Assembly (NCBI RefSeq): GCF_009914755.1
Contig: NC_060938.1
Direction: 5' to 3' (one strand)
Source of the DNA: the human T2T-CHM13v2.0 reference genome, Homo sapiens
DNA length: 64,000 nt
The notes beneath the pieces are model-generated. The model saw only the letters and a list, made by a program, of their open reading frames with translations. It did no database searches and was not told where the DNA came from. The translations under genes were made by a program, and so were the position numbers. Every line of letters starts with the position of its first letter. Position 1 is the first letter of the stretch. Positions 56,808 through 64,000 of the stretch are shown one piece after another.

Positions 56808-58556
56808 TCATTTCAAAATTATTTGAGTAGCTGGATTTTTCTTTCTTGGGCCACAGACATAAGAACTGGGCCCTCAGGTTTGGAAGAGCACCAACCGCAC
56901 GGCAGGTGATCAGAACATGTGTCCTGACCCCTGCCCACAGGCATGGTGGTCCAGGCCTCAGCCACAGGCCACGAGGTGTTTTGGGGCCACCGCAGCAGTG
57001 GGCCGAGGCCTTTGCTTGTGGATGGACAGGGGGCTGTGCTGGGCCTCCAGAACCCACCATGCTCCCTGGAAACAAAGGAGGCCACGTGCAGGGTCTGACC
57101 TTTAGCTCCCCATAGGGAAAGGATGTGTCAGCAGAGTGTGAGCAGTGGAACCAACCTGAGCTGGCCACTGTTGGCCTTGGGAGTCCAGGCCTTGGGTCTC
57201 ACCCTGCTGGTCCCAAGGCCTAGGTGGGGCAGGAAGGTGTCAGAGTTGTCCAGGACACCCCGACGGTTTGCCTGATTTTGCAAGGACAGAGGCTCAACTG
57301 AGAAGCAGGCACCCATCAACCCTCCCTCAGTAGTGTCTTTCCTGTCTCTGCTGGGCCTTGTTGACTGTGATCAATGACTTCCACTTCCCCGTTGGGGAAA
57401 CTGAGGCACAGAGAAGTCATGCAGTGCCCTAGCAGCAGGGCTGAAATTCACTGGGGCTGTGGGCCCCGCCAGGAAGCCACTGGCCGCCCCACCATGCACT
57501 CCTGGCAGCCCGGCTCTCAGCGAAGTGGGAGATGGGGTGGGCTTGGCCGGAGCTAGGGAAGGGTCGCTGCAGCCCCGGCCCCACCCAGACAAGCCTCCAC
57601 TTCCTGAGCTGGCCGCCAGGACAGGCTGGGCTCCCAAAATCCTTCCTAAAAAGGAATCAGGCTGTGGTGGCCCACACTATTTTTAGATAATTGTGTTGAA
57701 AAATCCCAAGGCACATGTAGCATCATGCATTTTTTTATTCAGGAAGAAAAAAGAAAGGGACCTCCCCACTCTTCTCCCCACAGCCACCGCCTGCCCGAAA
57801 CAGGTCATGCCCCTGGAGTGGCCTCGCACCGTCCATCCCCGGAGGGGCAGTAGCCTGGGCCCTGCAGCTGCCCAGCCCTGGGGGTTAGGGCCTTGGGGTT
57901 TCTGGCTAGAAACAGGGCTCACCTCGGTCTCCTCCTAAGCCTGGAGCTCTCAGGTGGTGCAAGGCACACGGGGATCCCCCACATTGCAGGTGGGGAGACT
58001 GAGGCCAGGCTGTACTCATCTCCATTACGAGGCCTTTTTTTTTAAAAAAAAAACAAACAAAAAAACAAAAAACAGCCTTATGAAGATGTGATTGGCACGT
58101 AGTAAAGCGCAAGCATTTAAAATATACAGTTCAATATGTCTTGACATTTGTATCTATCCATGAAGCCATCGCCACTATTAAGAGAGGGATCATATCCATC
58201 ACCCTCAAAATGTCTTTATCATCTTTGAAACCCCTCCCTCTGGCCCCCCCTCCACCCCCAAGTCTCCTTGCCCCAGGCGCAATCACGGGTCTGCTTTCCC
58301 TCACTCTAGATTAGTCCACATTTTCTAGAGTTTTCTATAAATGGAATCACACAGCACGTTCTTTTTTGACTGGCTCCTTCAACTCGTCACCACTACCTGG
58401 AGATTCACCCATGTTGCTGCAGGCACCAAGCCCCTCATATGGACAGATCACAATTCGCTTCTCCTTTGATCTGTTGGTGGACATTTGGATTGTGATCAGT
58501 TTTTGGCTATTACAAATAAAGCTGCTATAAACATTTGCGGAGAAGTCTTTGTATTT

Positions 58557-59146
58557 GAGGGGACTGCAGGGAGGCCGGGCTGAGTCAGCGCCACTGCCGC
58601 TGCTGCGTGTCCCTTTCTGAGGCCTCGGACCGCACCGCTTTCGCCCTGCGGCCCGGCTCGGTAGCCTGATCAGTCGCGTTCCCGGCTGCGTCTCCGGTCA
58701 CCGAACGGGACGGCGGGATGGCGGGGTCGATCTGTGCAGACGCTGCTAGTGGTTCCGCAGTCGTCGCTGGGTCAGCTGTTTCGAGCGGCGGATCTGCTCC
58801 TATAGATGTCCAGATTGTTAGACGGTGGGCTTCATCCGTCCTACCTCGCCCAACCCAGTTGACTAATATTTGGGTCGGTGGAGCCCGAATAATACAATAA
58901 GAATAAAACCCAACGACAAAGGCCCTCTCTAACCCGAGTACACCGGCCTCTGGCTTTGTGACAAGCACGTCACTGTTAGGCTAAGCAGAGACTTTGGAAC
59001 CCCGGTTCTAAAGCTCTCAGAGTGGAAGAGTACCAGGACATGGGGGTGGGGGTTGGGGCAAAGCTTTGCTCCCTTAGAATAATACCAACGTACAGAGTTG
59101 CGATTGGTTAAAAAATAAAAAAAAATAAAAAAAATAAAAAAAAAAA
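58557..59146 (+). mobile_element. Young L1-mediated retroposed insertion of unknown origin (orphan retrocopy)
   Basis: Perfect 16-bp TSD agaagtctttgtattt (58541-58556, 59147-59162), A-rich tail 59110-59146, about 40 CpGs in ~550 bp by hand count. Confidence 0.9.
58718..58900 (+). CDS. Putative 60-aa microprotein ORF inside the orphan retrocopy
   Basis: First ATG of the insert, strong Kozak context gggATGG, in-frame upstream TGA at 58667, same strand as the tail. No homolog recognised. Confidence 0.35.
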   Translation: MAGSICADAASGSAVVAGSAVSSGGSAPIDVQIVRRWASSVLPRPTQLTNIWVGGARIIQ

Positions 59147-59489
59147 AGAAGTCTTTGTATTTTATATTTGTACATATATTTCCTTTTCTCTGGGGTACAT
59201 ACTAAGAGAGGAATTCCTGGATAATTCTATGTCTAACTTTTTAAGAAACTGCCAAACTGTTTTCCAAAGTGGCTGTACCATTTTACATTCCCTCCAACAA
59301 CGTATGAGGGTTCCAATTTCCCCACGTCCTCACAAACATTTGTTATTGTCTGTCTTTTTGATTATAGACATCCTAGTGGGTGTAAGGTGGTATCTCTTGG
59401 AGTTTTGACTTGCATTTCCCTAGTGAGTAATGATGTTGAACATTTCTTCATGTGCTTGTTGGCCTAGACCTTACTTTAAAAAAAAATAA

Positions 59490-60480
59490 ACTATTAAGTT
59501 TGGGATAATTTTAGATTCACTGAAAAGTTTCAGAGATAACACAGGGAATTCCCATTTACCCTTCACTCAATTTCCCCTAATATAACCTTTATGTTACCTG
59601 GCACATTTGTGCCAACAATGGAACTGACATTGATAAATTACTAGTAACCAAACTCCAGACTTTATTTAGATGTCAGCAGCTTATAATACGAATGTGCCTG
59701 ATATGGTTTGGCTGTGTCCCCACCCAAATCTCGTCTTGAATTGTAGTTCCCATAATCCCCACATGTCATGGGAGGGACCCGGTGCAAGGTAATTGAATCA
59801 TGGGGGTGGCTACCCTCATGCTGTTCTCATGATAGTGAGTTCTCATGAGATCTGATGGTTTTATAAGGGTTTTTCCCCCTCCTTTTGCACGGCATTTCTC
59901 CTTCCTGCTGCCATGTGAAGAAGGACATGTTTGCCTCCCCTTCCTCCATGATTGTAAGTTTCCCGAGGCCTCTCCAGCCATGCTGAACTGTGAGTCAATT
60001 AAACTCGTTTTCTTTATAAATTACCTAGTCTCGGGTATGTCTTTATTAGCTGCATGAGGACGTACTAATACGGTGCCTTTCATCCAGGACCCCATACCAC
60101 CTAATATTTAGCTATGTCTTCATGGGCTTCTCTGGTTTTCGTCAGTTTCTTAGACTTTTCTTTTTCATGCTCTTGGTAGTTTTGAGGGGTATTGGTCAGG
60201 TATTTTGTAGAAAGTTCATCGGTTTGGGTTTGTCTGATGTTTTCTCATGATTACACTGGAGTTATGGGTTTGGGGGAAGAAGACCACAGAGATGAGGTGC
60301 CCTGCTCACCCCATCATATCTGGGGGTACCTGGTATTCACACGACTCATCACTGGGAATGCTGACCTTCATTGACTGGTGAAGGTGATGTCCTGCCAGGT
60401 TTCTCTGTGGTAATGTTACTATTTTTCCTATTTCCACATCCTTCTCTCTGAATGCAAGTCACCAAGTCCAGCCCACACTC
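59490..60480. mobile_element. L1MC-type fragment interrupted by THE1 LTR
   Basis: aattttagattcactgaaaagtt...; ggtcaggtattttgtagaa...gtttgtctgatgtttttctcatgatta. Confidence 0.65.
59699..60072. mobile_element. THE1C/D solo LTR (MaLR)
   Basis: tgatatggtttggctgtgtccccacccaaatctc...actaatac; 5-bp TSD gtgcc (59694-59698, 60073-60077). Confidence 0.93.
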
Positions 60481-60707
60481 CAGTGATGAAGCTCCCCAAG
60501 CTTCACTTGACTCTGAGGATCTTCTACGCCAGGCACTTCACATTGATGTTTCACTTAACCCCACCCCTGTTACTGTCCCTCTGGTAGAAGTCCTAATAAT
60601 CTCTAAACTTAGCAAATTCGCAGTTACAAAGGCTCAGGGATCACTTAGTCAAAACCTTCTTTACCATTTTTACAGACAAGGAAACTGAGATCCAGAGGGA
60701 GATGTGA

Positions 60708-61010
<303 letters not shown>

Positions 61011-61620
61011 AGATGTGACTCACTTTATGATCACATCACAAGCTAAAGGAAAATGGCGAGCCAGGTGTGGCGGCTCACGCCTGTAATCCCAGCACTTTGG
61101 GAGGCTGAGGCGGGTGGATCACTTGGAAGGATGTCTTGATCCAGAGTAAAGGCTCCATAGGCATTTATTGGTTGACAAGGTTGGCATATGTTGTATGAAT
61201 AAGAGCTTCCGTATGTGATAAGGTTTCTCTCTGTGGATGACATAGCCATGGGGTCGCCTGCTGCCTCCCGGTTACCCATACAAACCATGGAAACAGGAAT
61301 GGGTGACAGCCCCACGCTCCCCTGCTGTGAGCCTCCAATCCCCTGGCTGGCTAAACAGCAGCACCAGCTCCTCCTTCTGTCCAGCCGGACAGAGAGCCTG
61401 GAGGAAGCTGGAGTCTGGGTTTCAGTGGCTACAGACAACCCTCCAAATGGTCAGTTAAGAACCAGGGCCACATTGTGAGTGGACACTTTCACACTCTGCA
61501 GGTGACCACGCAAAGTGGTAGAGCAACTTATTTTATTTTTGTCATTCTTTTGAGGCAGGGTCTTGCTGTGTCTCCCAGGCTGGGGTGCAGTGGCATAATC
61601 ACTGCAGCCTTGACCTCCCA

Positions 61621-62385
61621 CTTTGTTACCTGTTTCCGACGGTGTGACCCGAGTGCGCTTCGTTACCCGTTTCTGATGGCATGACCCGACTGCACTTTGT
61701 TACCTGTTTTGATGGTTGTTTCTGATGGCATGACCCAACTGTGCCTCGTTACCCGTTTCCGATGGTGTGACCTGACTGTGCTTTGTTACCTGTTTCTGAT
61801 GTTTGTTTCTGATGGTGTGACCCGACTGTGTTTTGTTACCTGTTTCCGATGGTGTGACCTGACTGCGCTTTGTTACCTGTTTCTGATGGTTGTTTCTGAT
61901 GGTGTGACCCGACTGTGTTTTGTTACCTGTTTCTGATGGTTGTTTCTGGTGGTGTGACCCAACTGCACTTTGTTACCTGTTTCTGATGGTGTGACATGAC
62001 TGCGCTTCGTTACCCATTTCCGATGGTGTGACCTGACTACGCTTTGTTACCTGTTTCTGGTGGTGTGACCCAACTGTGATTTGTTACCTGTTTCTGATGT
62101 TTGTTTCTGATGGTGTGACCTGACTGCTTTGTTACCTGTTTCCAATGGCGTGACCTGACTGAGCTTTGTTACCTGTTTCTGATGGTGTGACCTGACTGCT
62201 TTGTTACCTGTTTCCAATGGTGTGACCTGACTGCGCTTTGTTACCTGTTTCCGATGGTGTGACCTGACTGCTTTGTTACCTGTTTCCAATGGCATGACCT
62301 GACTGCGCTTTGTTACCTGTTTCTGATGGCGTGACCTGACTGCGCTTTGTTACCTCTTTCCGATAGCGGGATCTGACTGCATTTT
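61621..62385. repeat. Minisatellite (VNTR), ~37-bp unit tttgttacctgtttc(c/t)gatggtgtgacctgactgcgc with shorter and longer variants
   Basis: About 19 visible copies. Confidence 0.96.
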
Positions 62386-62689
62386 GCATTCATGGGGGCA
62401 CCGTCTGGCAAGGTGAGCTTGTCAGGGAGAGGCCGTAGCCCTCACCACCGCTAATGACTGGCTACCACACAGAGGTTCCAGGCAGAGTCTAGCTACTGGA
62501 GCCAACCAGCGTGGCTTCGGCCAGTTAACAGACCACTTCTTGGAGTCATGAGGATTAACTCAGTGAGCCCATGGAAAATGCACAAACTAAGCCCTCAATA
62601 AATATAGCCTGATGAACTGCCATTCTGCCTATCCGAATTCTACCCTAAGATAGATAATCAGAGATGCTAGGAGAAAACATGAGCATGTG

Positions 62690-62910
62690 AGTGGCTAAGA
62701 GTATGGATTCTGGAGTCAGGCAACCTGGGTTCAAGGCCTGCTGTAGTATTACCCAAACTTGGGCAAGTTTGTTCATCTTCTGAAGAGAGCTTCATTTCTC
62801 ACCTGGACCTGTATCCGTAATAACTGTATGCATATCATAGCACTGTCATGAGGATTAGATGAGTTAATACATGTCGAATGATTGGTGCATAATAAATGCT
62901 CAATAATTGT
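62690..62910 (+). mobile_element. MIR
   Basis: ggattctggagtcaggcaacctgggttcaa...gaggattagatgagttaatac. Confidence 0.75.
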
Positions 62911-63135
62911 GAGCTGGCATTACCCATTCCATTGTATGTGGCATGACAATGTGAAACCACTTAAATCATTGACAATAAAGAAAGGGTTAAACAGTCTGCA
63001 GTGCATCCATGTGAGGGGAGGTTATGCTGTCTCTAAGTTATCTAGAAAGATTTTTACTGACAAGAGAATATTAAGTGAAAAGATCCATACGGTGTTATAG
63101 ATAGTATGATTTCACTTCATTAAATATCTATACTT

Positions 63136-64000
<865 letters not shown>

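What the first reader, a model, noticed from the sequence alone, without database searches (positions are those of the whole stretch)
58557..58907. The orphan insert is built like a complete small mRNA encoding a 60-aa peptide
Seen: a 161-nt GC-rich leader with no ATG and an in-frame TGA (58667), then a first ATG in strong Kozak context (G at -3, G at +4). An uninterrupted ORF (MAGSICADAASGSAVVAGSAVSSGGSAPIDVQIVRRWASSVLPRPTQLTNIWVGGARIIQ) follows, then AATAAA at 58902 right after the stop and a ~210-nt trailer. Codon usage is flat, with codons rare in human genes (TCG, GCG, CGA, CTA, ATA). The antisense mirror frame (58585-58968) is also open for 127 codons. Inference: a possible intact microprotein retrogene or a non-host mRNA.
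Basis: partly seen in the sequence, partly recalled or inferred. Interest (0 to 1): 0.7.

Follow-up and report, generated by a model that had tools for sequence, protein, structure and literature searches.

The report
Human-specific retrocopy of PCMT1 antisense RNA
The insert is a young, already published, human-specific reverse-transcribed copy of a short non-coding RNA made next to the PCMT1 gene, and its 60-codon reading frame is no longer than chance would give.

Summary
The insert has a 161-nt leader without ATG, a first ATG in a G(-3)/G(+4) context, a 60-codon ORF and AATAAA after the stop. The opposite strand has a long open frame.

The insert (58557-59146, 590 nt) is an L1-type retrocopy. 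It has a perfect 16-bp target-site duplication, a 37-nt A-rich tail and one extra 5' G. It sits in an old LINE-1 ORF2 remnant inside the annotated TTC7B 3'UTR, antisense to TTC7B.

Its source is in the same genome. Positions 58558-59117 match chr6 with 4 differences in 560 nt. The chr6 stretch is colinear and lies just upstream of PCMT1 exon 1, on the opposite strand, 2.4 kb from NUP43 exon 1. So the insert copies a short, unspliced divergent transcript of the PCMT1 CpG-island promoter.

This locus is in print. Mori et al. 2016 (PMC5010893) list it as "Novel-r": 590 bp, noncoding, human-specific.

The ORF is unremarkable. 1243 of 5000 dinucleotide shuffles give a + strand ATG ORF of at least 60 codons. 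It has no Pfam match and no database homolog. GC at the third codon position is lower than at the first two. The antisense frame has no ATG.

A non-host origin is refuted and a microprotein is unsupported. Verdict: already known, low interest.

The parts
58541..58556 (.). Left copy of the 16-bp target-site duplication AGAAGTCTTTGTATTT
   Evidence: two 100% identical copies, spacing 606
58557..58557 (+). One extra G. It is in neither the parent (C at that place) nor the duplicated target
   Evidence: alignment. Reading it as a cap-derived G is from recalled knowledge of full-length L1-mediated inserts
58558..59117 (+). Retrocopy body. It is colinear with chr6 150948819-150949378 (minus strand), with 4 differences in 560 nt at 58596, 58689, 58705 and 58775
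58558..58717 (+). GC-rich leader (GC 0.72, 20 CpG, observed/expected 0.97) with no ATG
58718..58900 (+). 60-codon ATG ORF, also open in the chr6 parent with one difference (Ala20 here, Pro20 on chr6). Judged incidental
58902..58907 (+). AATAAA hexamer. It was not the signal used by the copied RNA, which continues to 59109
58588..58980 (-). Stop-free stretch of 131 codons on the opposite strand, without any ATG
59110..59146 (+). A-rich tail (A6 T A9 T A8 T A11-12). Only its first 8 bases (AAAAAATA) are also present at the chr6 parent
59147..59162 (.). Right copy of the target-site duplication
59163..59700 (-). Old LINE-1 ORF2 C-terminal remnant that was split by the insertion. It continues at 58250-58540
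   Evidence: window:59165-59329:- matches LINE-1 ORF2 protein residues ~1133-1183, E 2.4e-13; 9152 dispersed candidates at 72-83% identity (76-83% for the right-flank matches), with left and right flanks abutting in other copies.
57718..64000 (-). TTC7B last exon (3'UTR) that hosts the insert in antisense orientation. AATAAA lies on the minus strand just before the annotated end
   Evidence: hub annotation table

Best explanation
A short RNA of about 550 nt, unspliced, capped and polyadenylated, is transcribed from the PCMT1 CpG-island promoter on chr6 in the direction away from PCMT1. It is an upstream antisense, or divergent, transcript.

The LINE-1 machinery reverse-transcribed this RNA and inserted it on chr14 by target-primed reverse transcription. 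The landing site was an old LINE-1 remnant inside what is now annotated as the TTC7B 3'UTR, on the strand opposite to TTC7B. The event happened in the human lineage after the split from chimpanzee.

The copy brought no promoter of its own. It is most likely a neutral passenger, transcribed only as antisense sequence within the long TTC7B 3'UTR. The 60-codon ORF and the long antisense open frame are by-products of GC-rich sequence that is poor in stop codons and ATGs. They are not genes.

Shown: the insert's anatomy, the parent locus, and the chance level of the ORF. Taken from the paper: human specificity. Inferred: neutrality, and capping of the source RNA.
For: Anatomy of the insert:
- Perfect 16-bp target-site duplication at 58541-58556 and 59147-59162.
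- A 37-nt A-rich tail that is absent at the parent apart from a genomic AAAAAATA.
- Homology to chr6 starts and stops exactly at the insert ends, with 4 differences in 560 nt, in one colinear piece.
- Only these two copies were found in the genome (2 candidates, 2 scored).

Parent locus:
- The parent 5' end is 292 nt upstream of, and opposite to, the PCMT1 exon-1 ATG. That exon is identified by PDB 1i1n residues 1-17, E 0.0017.
- It lies inside the PCMT1 CpG island.
- It lies 2.4 kb from NUP43 exon 1, identified by PDB 5a9q, E 2.4e-22.

Insertion site:
- The flanks are an old dispersed repeat. In other copies the left-flank and right-flank homologues abut, for example C23:13544426-13544546 with 13544540-13544831.
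- The flank encodes a LINE-1 ORF2 remnant.

ORF:
- Chance level in shuffles, 1243 of 5000.
- GC by codon position is 0.59, 0.62 and 0.43.
- No Pfam match, no protein relatives, no Rfam family, and fold z-score 0.17.

In print: Mori et al. 2016, PMC5010893 (Results and Discussion read). Table 1 lists 'Novel-r', chr14:90991749-90992338 (GRCh37), 590 bp, noncoding, parent 'Novel'. The text calls it a retrocopy of an unannotated transcript from the 5' region of PCMT1, head-to-head, incorporated into the TTC7B 3'UTR. It is one of 16 retrocopies absent from chimpanzee, gorilla and orangutan.
Against: - Intron loss, the usual proof of an RNA intermediate, cannot be shown because the parent is colinear.
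- No canonical AATAAA or ATTAAA lies within 40 nt of the tail; only AATAAT at 59078-59083 does. The parent has a genomic A6 run at the 3' end. So the true 3' end of the source RNA is not certain.
- The bases at the nick site (GG/AGAAG on the top strand) match the L1 endonuclease consensus only weakly.
- All 40 CpGs present in the chr6 source over 58558-59106 (41 in the chr14 copy, which also has CG at 58689 where chr6 has TG) are retained in the chr14 copy. That fits youth, but it would also fit a protected, unmethylated and possibly active CpG island. I could not see the paper's methylation figure.
- The ORF is intact in both copies and has a good start context. Translation of the parent RNA is therefore not excluded.
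- I had no other primate genome, so human specificity rests on the paper. My only support is the low divergence.
Confidence: 0.93

Rival explanations
1. The ORF encodes a real 60-aa microprotein. It would be translated from the PCMT1 upstream antisense RNA, and the chr14 insert would be a second, human-specific gene copy (a microprotein retrogene).
For: The ORF starts at the first ATG of the RNA in a G(-3)/G(+4) context. The leader has no upstream ATG. The ORF is intact in both copies, with one amino-acid difference.
Against: - ORF length is at chance: 1243 of 5000 shuffles overall, and 523 of 5000 for a first-ATG ORF.
- The composition is low in complexity: 33 of 60 residues are A, S, G or V. 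GC at the third codon position (0.43) is below that at positions 1 and 2.
- No Pfam match. No hit among proteins of 33-105 aa in the 5.8-billion set. No paper holds the peptide's first 12 residues (supplements were not searched).
- The chr14 copy has no promoter of its own and lies antisense in the TTC7B 3'UTR.
- Mori et al. list it as noncoding, and found none of their characterised retrocopy-associated transcripts starting at its 5' CpG island.
Confidence: 0.04
2. The insert has been taken up as a regulatory element. One route is that the TTC7B 3'UTR now carries about 550 nt complementary to the PCMT1 upstream antisense RNA, which would allow RNA duplexes. Another is that it acts as a new CpG island or enhancer carrying PCMT1 promoter-proximal sites.
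For: - The insert is antisense within the annotated TTC7B 3'UTR (hub table).
- CpG observed/expected is 0.98 over 58558-58960, and no source CpG has been lost.
- There is a GCTGAGTCAGC palindrome at 58579-58589; its identity as an AP-1/Maf-type site is recalled.
- Mori et al. discuss antisense duplex formation for other retrocopies in their set.
Against: There is no functional data for this locus in the paper sections read. The insert is too young for constraint to show. The source RNA is probably rare. There is no structure signal (z 0.17).
Confidence: 0.05
3. The insert is foreign (non-host) sequence, or a DNA-level duplication such as a segmental duplication or gene conversion, and not an RNA-mediated copy.
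For: The codon usage is unusual for human genes, the CpG content is high, and the parent is colinear, so there is no intron loss to prove an RNA step.
Against: A near-identical source exists in the same genome (4 differences in 560 nt). The homology ends exactly at an A-rich tail and at a single extra G. The whole insert is bracketed by a 16-bp target-site duplication.
Confidence: 0.01

Closest known systems
[quoted passage not shown] 2016 (Genome Biol Evol 8:2288; PMC5010893)
   Same: Same chromosome, same 590-bp length, same host (TTC7B 3'UTR), and same source (an unannotated transcript head-to-head with PCMT1). The paper also classes it as noncoding.
   Different: Nothing differs in substance: this is the same locus in another assembly. 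Added here:
- the exact TSD, the extra 5' G and the tail structure;
- the four diagnostic differences;
- the LINE-1 ORF2 host remnant;
- a chance test of the ORF.
L1-mediated processed pseudogenes / gene retrocopies
   Same: Target-site duplication, a poly(A) tail absent at the parent, loss of the parent's flanks and promoter, and a source on another chromosome.
   Different: The source is not a spliced protein-coding mRNA. It is a short unspliced promoter-upstream antisense RNA, so there is no intron loss and no parental coding sequence.
Promoter upstream transcripts / upstream antisense RNAs (PROMPTs, uaRNAs) of CpG-island promoters
   Same: The parent starts inside the PCMT1 CpG island on the opposite strand. 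It is about 550 nt, unspliced, and ends at an A-rich site. The general properties of the class are recalled, not tested.
   Different: Such RNAs are thought to be short-lived. This one lasted long enough in the germline or early embryo to be retrotransposed at full length. Its instability and exosome sensitivity were not tested.

Membership tests
L1-mediated retrocopy (processed copy of a cellular RNA) | Flanking target-site duplication of about 7-20 bp | tested here: met
   16-bp perfect direct repeat at 58541-58556 and 59147-59162. It was the only direct-repeat family found in 58400-59300.
L1-mediated retrocopy (processed copy of a cellular RNA) | 3' poly(A) tail not encoded at the source locus | tested here: met
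   The 37-nt A-rich tail is at 59110-59146. The parent has only AAAAAATA and then unrelated sequence.
L1-mediated retrocopy (processed copy of a cellular RNA) | Homology to the source limited to the transcribed unit, with the source elsewhere in the genome | tested here: met
   Homology spans 58558-59117 only, and the flanks are unrelated to chr6.
L1-mediated retrocopy (processed copy of a cellular RNA) | Loss of introns relative to the source | tested here: inconclusive
   The source is colinear in one piece, with no intron to lose.
L1-mediated retrocopy (processed copy of a cellular RNA) | Uninterrupted (empty) target site in related sequences or species | tested here: met
   In other copies of the host repeat the left-flank and right-flank homologues abut or overlap by 7-8 bp. 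Absence from chimpanzee, gorilla and orangutan is reported by PMC5010893 and was not tested here.
L1-mediated retrocopy (processed copy of a cellular RNA) | L1 endonuclease-type nick site (TTTT/AA on the bottom strand; consensus recalled) | tested here: inconclusive
   The top strand reads GG/AGAAG, so the bottom strand reads CTTCT/CC. This is a weak match.
Promoter upstream / divergent antisense transcript | Start within a few hundred bp of a coding gene's start, on the opposite strand, in the same CpG island | tested here: met
   The parent 5' end is at L002 2049 on the minus strand. The PCMT1 exon-1 ATG is at L002 2341 on the plus strand. CpG observed/expected is 0.92-0.99 across the region.
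Promoter upstream / divergent antisense transcript | Direct RNA evidence for the transcript and its instability | not testable with these tools
   The only evidence is the retrocopy itself and the paper's statement that the source is an unannotated transcript.
Protein-coding retrogene / microprotein gene | ORF longer than expected from composition | tested here: not met
   1243 of 5000 shuffles reach 60 codons on the + strand.
Protein-coding retrogene / microprotein gene | Homologues or a known family | tested here: not met
   Pfam gave 0 families. The 5.8-billion protein search gave 3 word-sharing candidates and none at E<=0.01. Primate orthologues could not be examined.
Protein-coding retrogene / microprotein gene | Sense transcription and translation | not testable with these tools
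   No expression data are available here. The paper treats the locus as part of the TTC7B 3'UTR, which is the opposite strand.
Foreign (non-host) sequence | No source in the host genome | tested here: not met
   The source is on chr6 of the same assembly, with 4 differences in 560 nt.

The most novel reading that the evidence does not exclude
The PCMT1 upstream antisense RNA is translated into a 60-aa peptide, and humans alone carry a second intact copy on chr14. Alternatively, the human-specific insert makes the TTC7B 3'UTR base-pair with that RNA and so couples TTC7B and PCMT1 regulation. Neither is excluded, because no expression, ribosome-profiling or cross-species data could be examined.
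Probability: 0.05. Interest if true: 0.4.

Novelty: already known. Interest (0 to 1): 0.12.

Why it matters
There is little new here. The locus was described in 2016 as one of 16 human-specific retrocopies with a 5' CpG island.

It has modest value as an example. A retrocopy can act as a full-length fossil of an otherwise unannotated promoter-upstream antisense RNA, fixing that RNA's 5' and 3' ends. It also shows that an apparently complete small mRNA with a 60-codon ORF in GC-rich DNA need not be a gene.

If the ORF were translated, or the insert altered TTC7B or PCMT1 regulation, it would be a human-specific change. Nothing here points that way.

Tried and rejected
- Rfam, all families, E<=1, over 58300-59400: 0 matches.
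- RNA fold of 58558-59106: z 0.17, and 55 of 100 shuffles fold at least as well. There is no structured-RNA signal.
- Pfam on the 60-aa ORF and on the 131-aa antisense frame: 0 families each.
- 5.8-billion protein search with the 60-aa ORF (near lengths only, 33-105 aa): nothing at E<=0.01. The longer and shorter length classes were not searched.
- First attempt to identify the flanking repeat used + strand ORFs, against PDB and Pfam: 0 hits. I had recalled the LINE-1 orientation wrongly. The minus-strand translation then matched LINE-1 ORF2.
- Literature searches that found nothing relevant:
  - peptide prefix;
  - 'PCMT1' with 'divergent transcript';
  - PCMT1-AS, PCMT1-DT, 'PCMT1 antisense', 'PCMT1 promoter' (two unrelated papers, one checked);
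  - phrases for lncRNA retrocopies;
  - retrocopies with promoter upstream transcripts (one review, not read);
  - PCMT1 with bidirectional or upstream antisense (none of the 12 listed papers holds PCMT1).
- The search 'TTC7B' with 'retrocopy' found the decisive paper.
- No cross-species comparison was possible, because no other primate genome is held by the tools.
- The paper's figures (methylation heat map, fig. 4h) and its supplements were not seen.

Full report
**1. Observation**

- The stretch 58557-58717 (161 nt) has no ATG. The + strand ATGs in 58558-59106 are only at 58718, 58806 and 59040.
- An in-frame TGA lies at 58667.
- The ATG at 58718 sits in GACGGCGGGATGGCG, so G at -3 and G at +4.
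- The ORF 58718-58900 gives exactly the quoted 60 residues.
- AATAAA is at 58902-58907.
- On the opposite strand a stop-free stretch runs 58588-58980.

**2. Is it more than chance?**

No. I made 5000 dinucleotide-preserving shuffles of 58558-59106.
- 1243 had a + strand ATG ORF of at least 60 codons.
- 2092 had one on either strand.
- 523 had a first-ATG ORF of at least 60 codons.
- 336 had a reverse-strand open stretch of at least 131 codons.

The peptide is dominated by A, S, G and V (33 of 60 residues). GC by codon position is 0.59, 0.62 and 0.43. That is the opposite of the third-position GC enrichment usual for human coding sequence in GC-rich DNA (general knowledge).

**3. What the insert is**

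- A perfect 16-bp direct repeat, AGAAGTCTTTGTATTT, lies at 58541-58556 and 59147-59162. It was the only direct-repeat family in 58400-59300.
- Between the repeats are one G (58557), a 552-nt body (58558-59109) and a 37-nt A-rich tail (59110-59146).
- The total, 58557-59146, is 590 nt.
- Target-site duplication plus A-tail is the anatomy of an L1-mediated retrotransposition.

**4. The landing site**

- The flanks belong to an old dispersed repeat. There were 9152 first-look candidates, and the 40 scored were 72-83% identical (76-83% for the right-flank matches).
- In other copies the left-flank and right-flank homologues abut or overlap by 7-8 bp. Examples are C23:13544426-13544546 with 13544540-13544831, and C1:6332583-6332687 with 6332680-6332976. 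The target was therefore continuous before the insertion.
- Translated on the minus strand, the flank 59165-59329 matches LINE-1 ORF2 protein residues about 1133-1183 (PDB 9hdo and 8sxt, E 2.4e-13 and 1.5e-12).
- My first attempt on the + strand found nothing, because I had recalled the orientation wrongly.
- The whole site lies in the last exon (3'UTR) of TTC7B on the minus strand, according to the hub's annotation. An AATAAA lies on the minus strand just before the annotated end at 57718. The insert is antisense to TTC7B.

**5. The source**

- A search of the window's own genome found only two places: the insert itself and chr6 150948830-150949378 on the minus strand (2 candidates, 2 scored).
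- With a longer query the match runs from 58558 to 59117.
- The alignment has 4 differences in 560 positions, at 58596 (G here, T on chr6), 58689 (C/T), 58705 (A/G) and 58775 (G/C). It has no gaps.
- At chr6 the homology is flanked by unrelated sequence on both sides. There is no duplication and no tail there, only a genomic AAAAAATA. So chr6 is the source and chr14 is the copy.
- The base before the homology is C on chr6 and G on chr14. The G at 58557 is therefore untemplated. An extra G at the 5' end of full-length L1-mediated inserts is usually ascribed to the cap (recalled). The implied start, A after C, is a typical initiator dinucleotide (recalled).

**6. What the source is**

- The chr6 stretch begins 292 nt upstream of the PCMT1 exon-1 ATG and points away from it. 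Translation of L002 2167-2394 matches residues 1-17 of PDB 1i1n, protein-L-isoaspartate O-methyltransferase, E 0.0017.
- It lies in the same CpG island, with observed/expected 0.92-0.99 at chr6 150949100-150949700.
- NUP43 exon 1 has its own CpG island and lies 2.4 kb beyond the source's 3' end, in the same orientation. It is identified by PDB 5a9q, E 2.4e-22.
- The source is therefore a short, unspliced, divergent (upstream antisense) transcript of the PCMT1 promoter, and not part of NUP43 or PCMT1.
- No canonical AATAAA or ATTAAA lies within 40 nt of its 3' end. Only AATAAT at 59078-59083 does.

**7. Age**

- The divergence is 4 differences in 560 nt, or 0.7%.
- All 40 CpGs present in the chr6 source over 58558-59106 are retained in the chr14 copy. 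The single CpG/TpG difference has the CpG on chr14.
- That is less than the human-chimpanzee divergence of about 1.2% (recalled). It fits an insertion in the human lineage.

**8. Already in print**

A search for 'TTC7B' with 'retrocopy' led to Mori et al. 2016, Genome Biol Evol 8:2288 (PMC5010893). I read its Results and Discussion. I did not see its figures or supplements.
- Table 1 lists 'Novel-r', chr14:90991749-90992338 (GRCh37), 590 bp, 'Noncoding', parent 'Novel'.
- It is one of 16 retrocopies with 5' CpG islands that have no counterpart on the orthologous chromosomes of chimpanzee, gorilla and orangutan.
- The authors found that none of the retrocopy-associated transcripts whose structure they determined starts at its 5' CpG island. 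They treat this one as transcribed within the host 3'UTR.
- The length, chromosome, host and source all match the insert analysed here.

**9. Other tests of a function of its own**

- Rfam: 0 matches at E<=1.
- RNA fold: z-score 0.17.
- Pfam: 0 families for both peptides.
- 5.8-billion protein search with the 60-aa ORF: none at E<=0.01, near lengths only.
- No paper holds the first 12 residues of the peptide (supplements were not searched).
- The ORF is also open in the chr6 source, with one difference (Ala20 on chr14, Pro20 on chr6). So any coding claim would belong first to the source RNA.

**10. Verdict**

Its reading is half right.
- The insert is a complete small polyadenylated RNA copied into DNA.
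- It is host-derived, non-coding by all tests available here, and already published.

Still open:
- whether the source ORF is conserved or translated;
- whether the insert is polymorphic in people;
- whether it matters for TTC7B or PCMT1.

None of these could be addressed, because the tools hold no other primate genome and no expression data.

Noticed in passing
window 58579-58589: The palindrome GCTGAGTCAGC contains TGAGTCA near the 5' end of the insert. By recall this is an AP-1 / Maf-recognition-type site. It derives from the PCMT1 promoter-proximal region, so the retrocopy carried part of that upstream regulatory DNA to chr14.
   Followed up: no
L002 2167-2340 (chr6, + strand): An upstream in-frame ATG opens a 58-codon N-terminal extension that runs into the PCMT1 exon-1 start codon (translation used). 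I did not check whether this is the known long PCMT1 isoform.
   Followed up: no
window 58689 versus its chr6 counterpart: The only CpG/TpG difference between the copies has the CpG on the chr14 retrocopy and TpG at the chr6 source. This suggests the change, or a polymorphism, arose at the source inside the PCMT1 CpG island after the copy was made.
   Followed up: no
window 59110-59146: The A-tail is interrupted by T at fairly regular intervals (A6 T A9 T A8 T A11-12). Its first 8 bases equal the genomic AAAAAATA at the source, so the exact RNA 3' end within 59109-59117 is ambiguous.
   Followed up: partly
window 57718-57745, minus strand: An AATAAA followed by an A-run lies just upstream of the annotated TTC7B 3' end. 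This agrees with the annotated very long (about 17 kb) terminal exon.
   Followed up: partly
window 58020-58075, minus strand: A T-rich then A-rich run (ttttttgtttttttgtttgttttttttttaaaaaaaaa) lies about 500 nt from the insert in the TTC7B 3'UTR. It is probably the edge of another repeat and was not examined.
   Followed up: no
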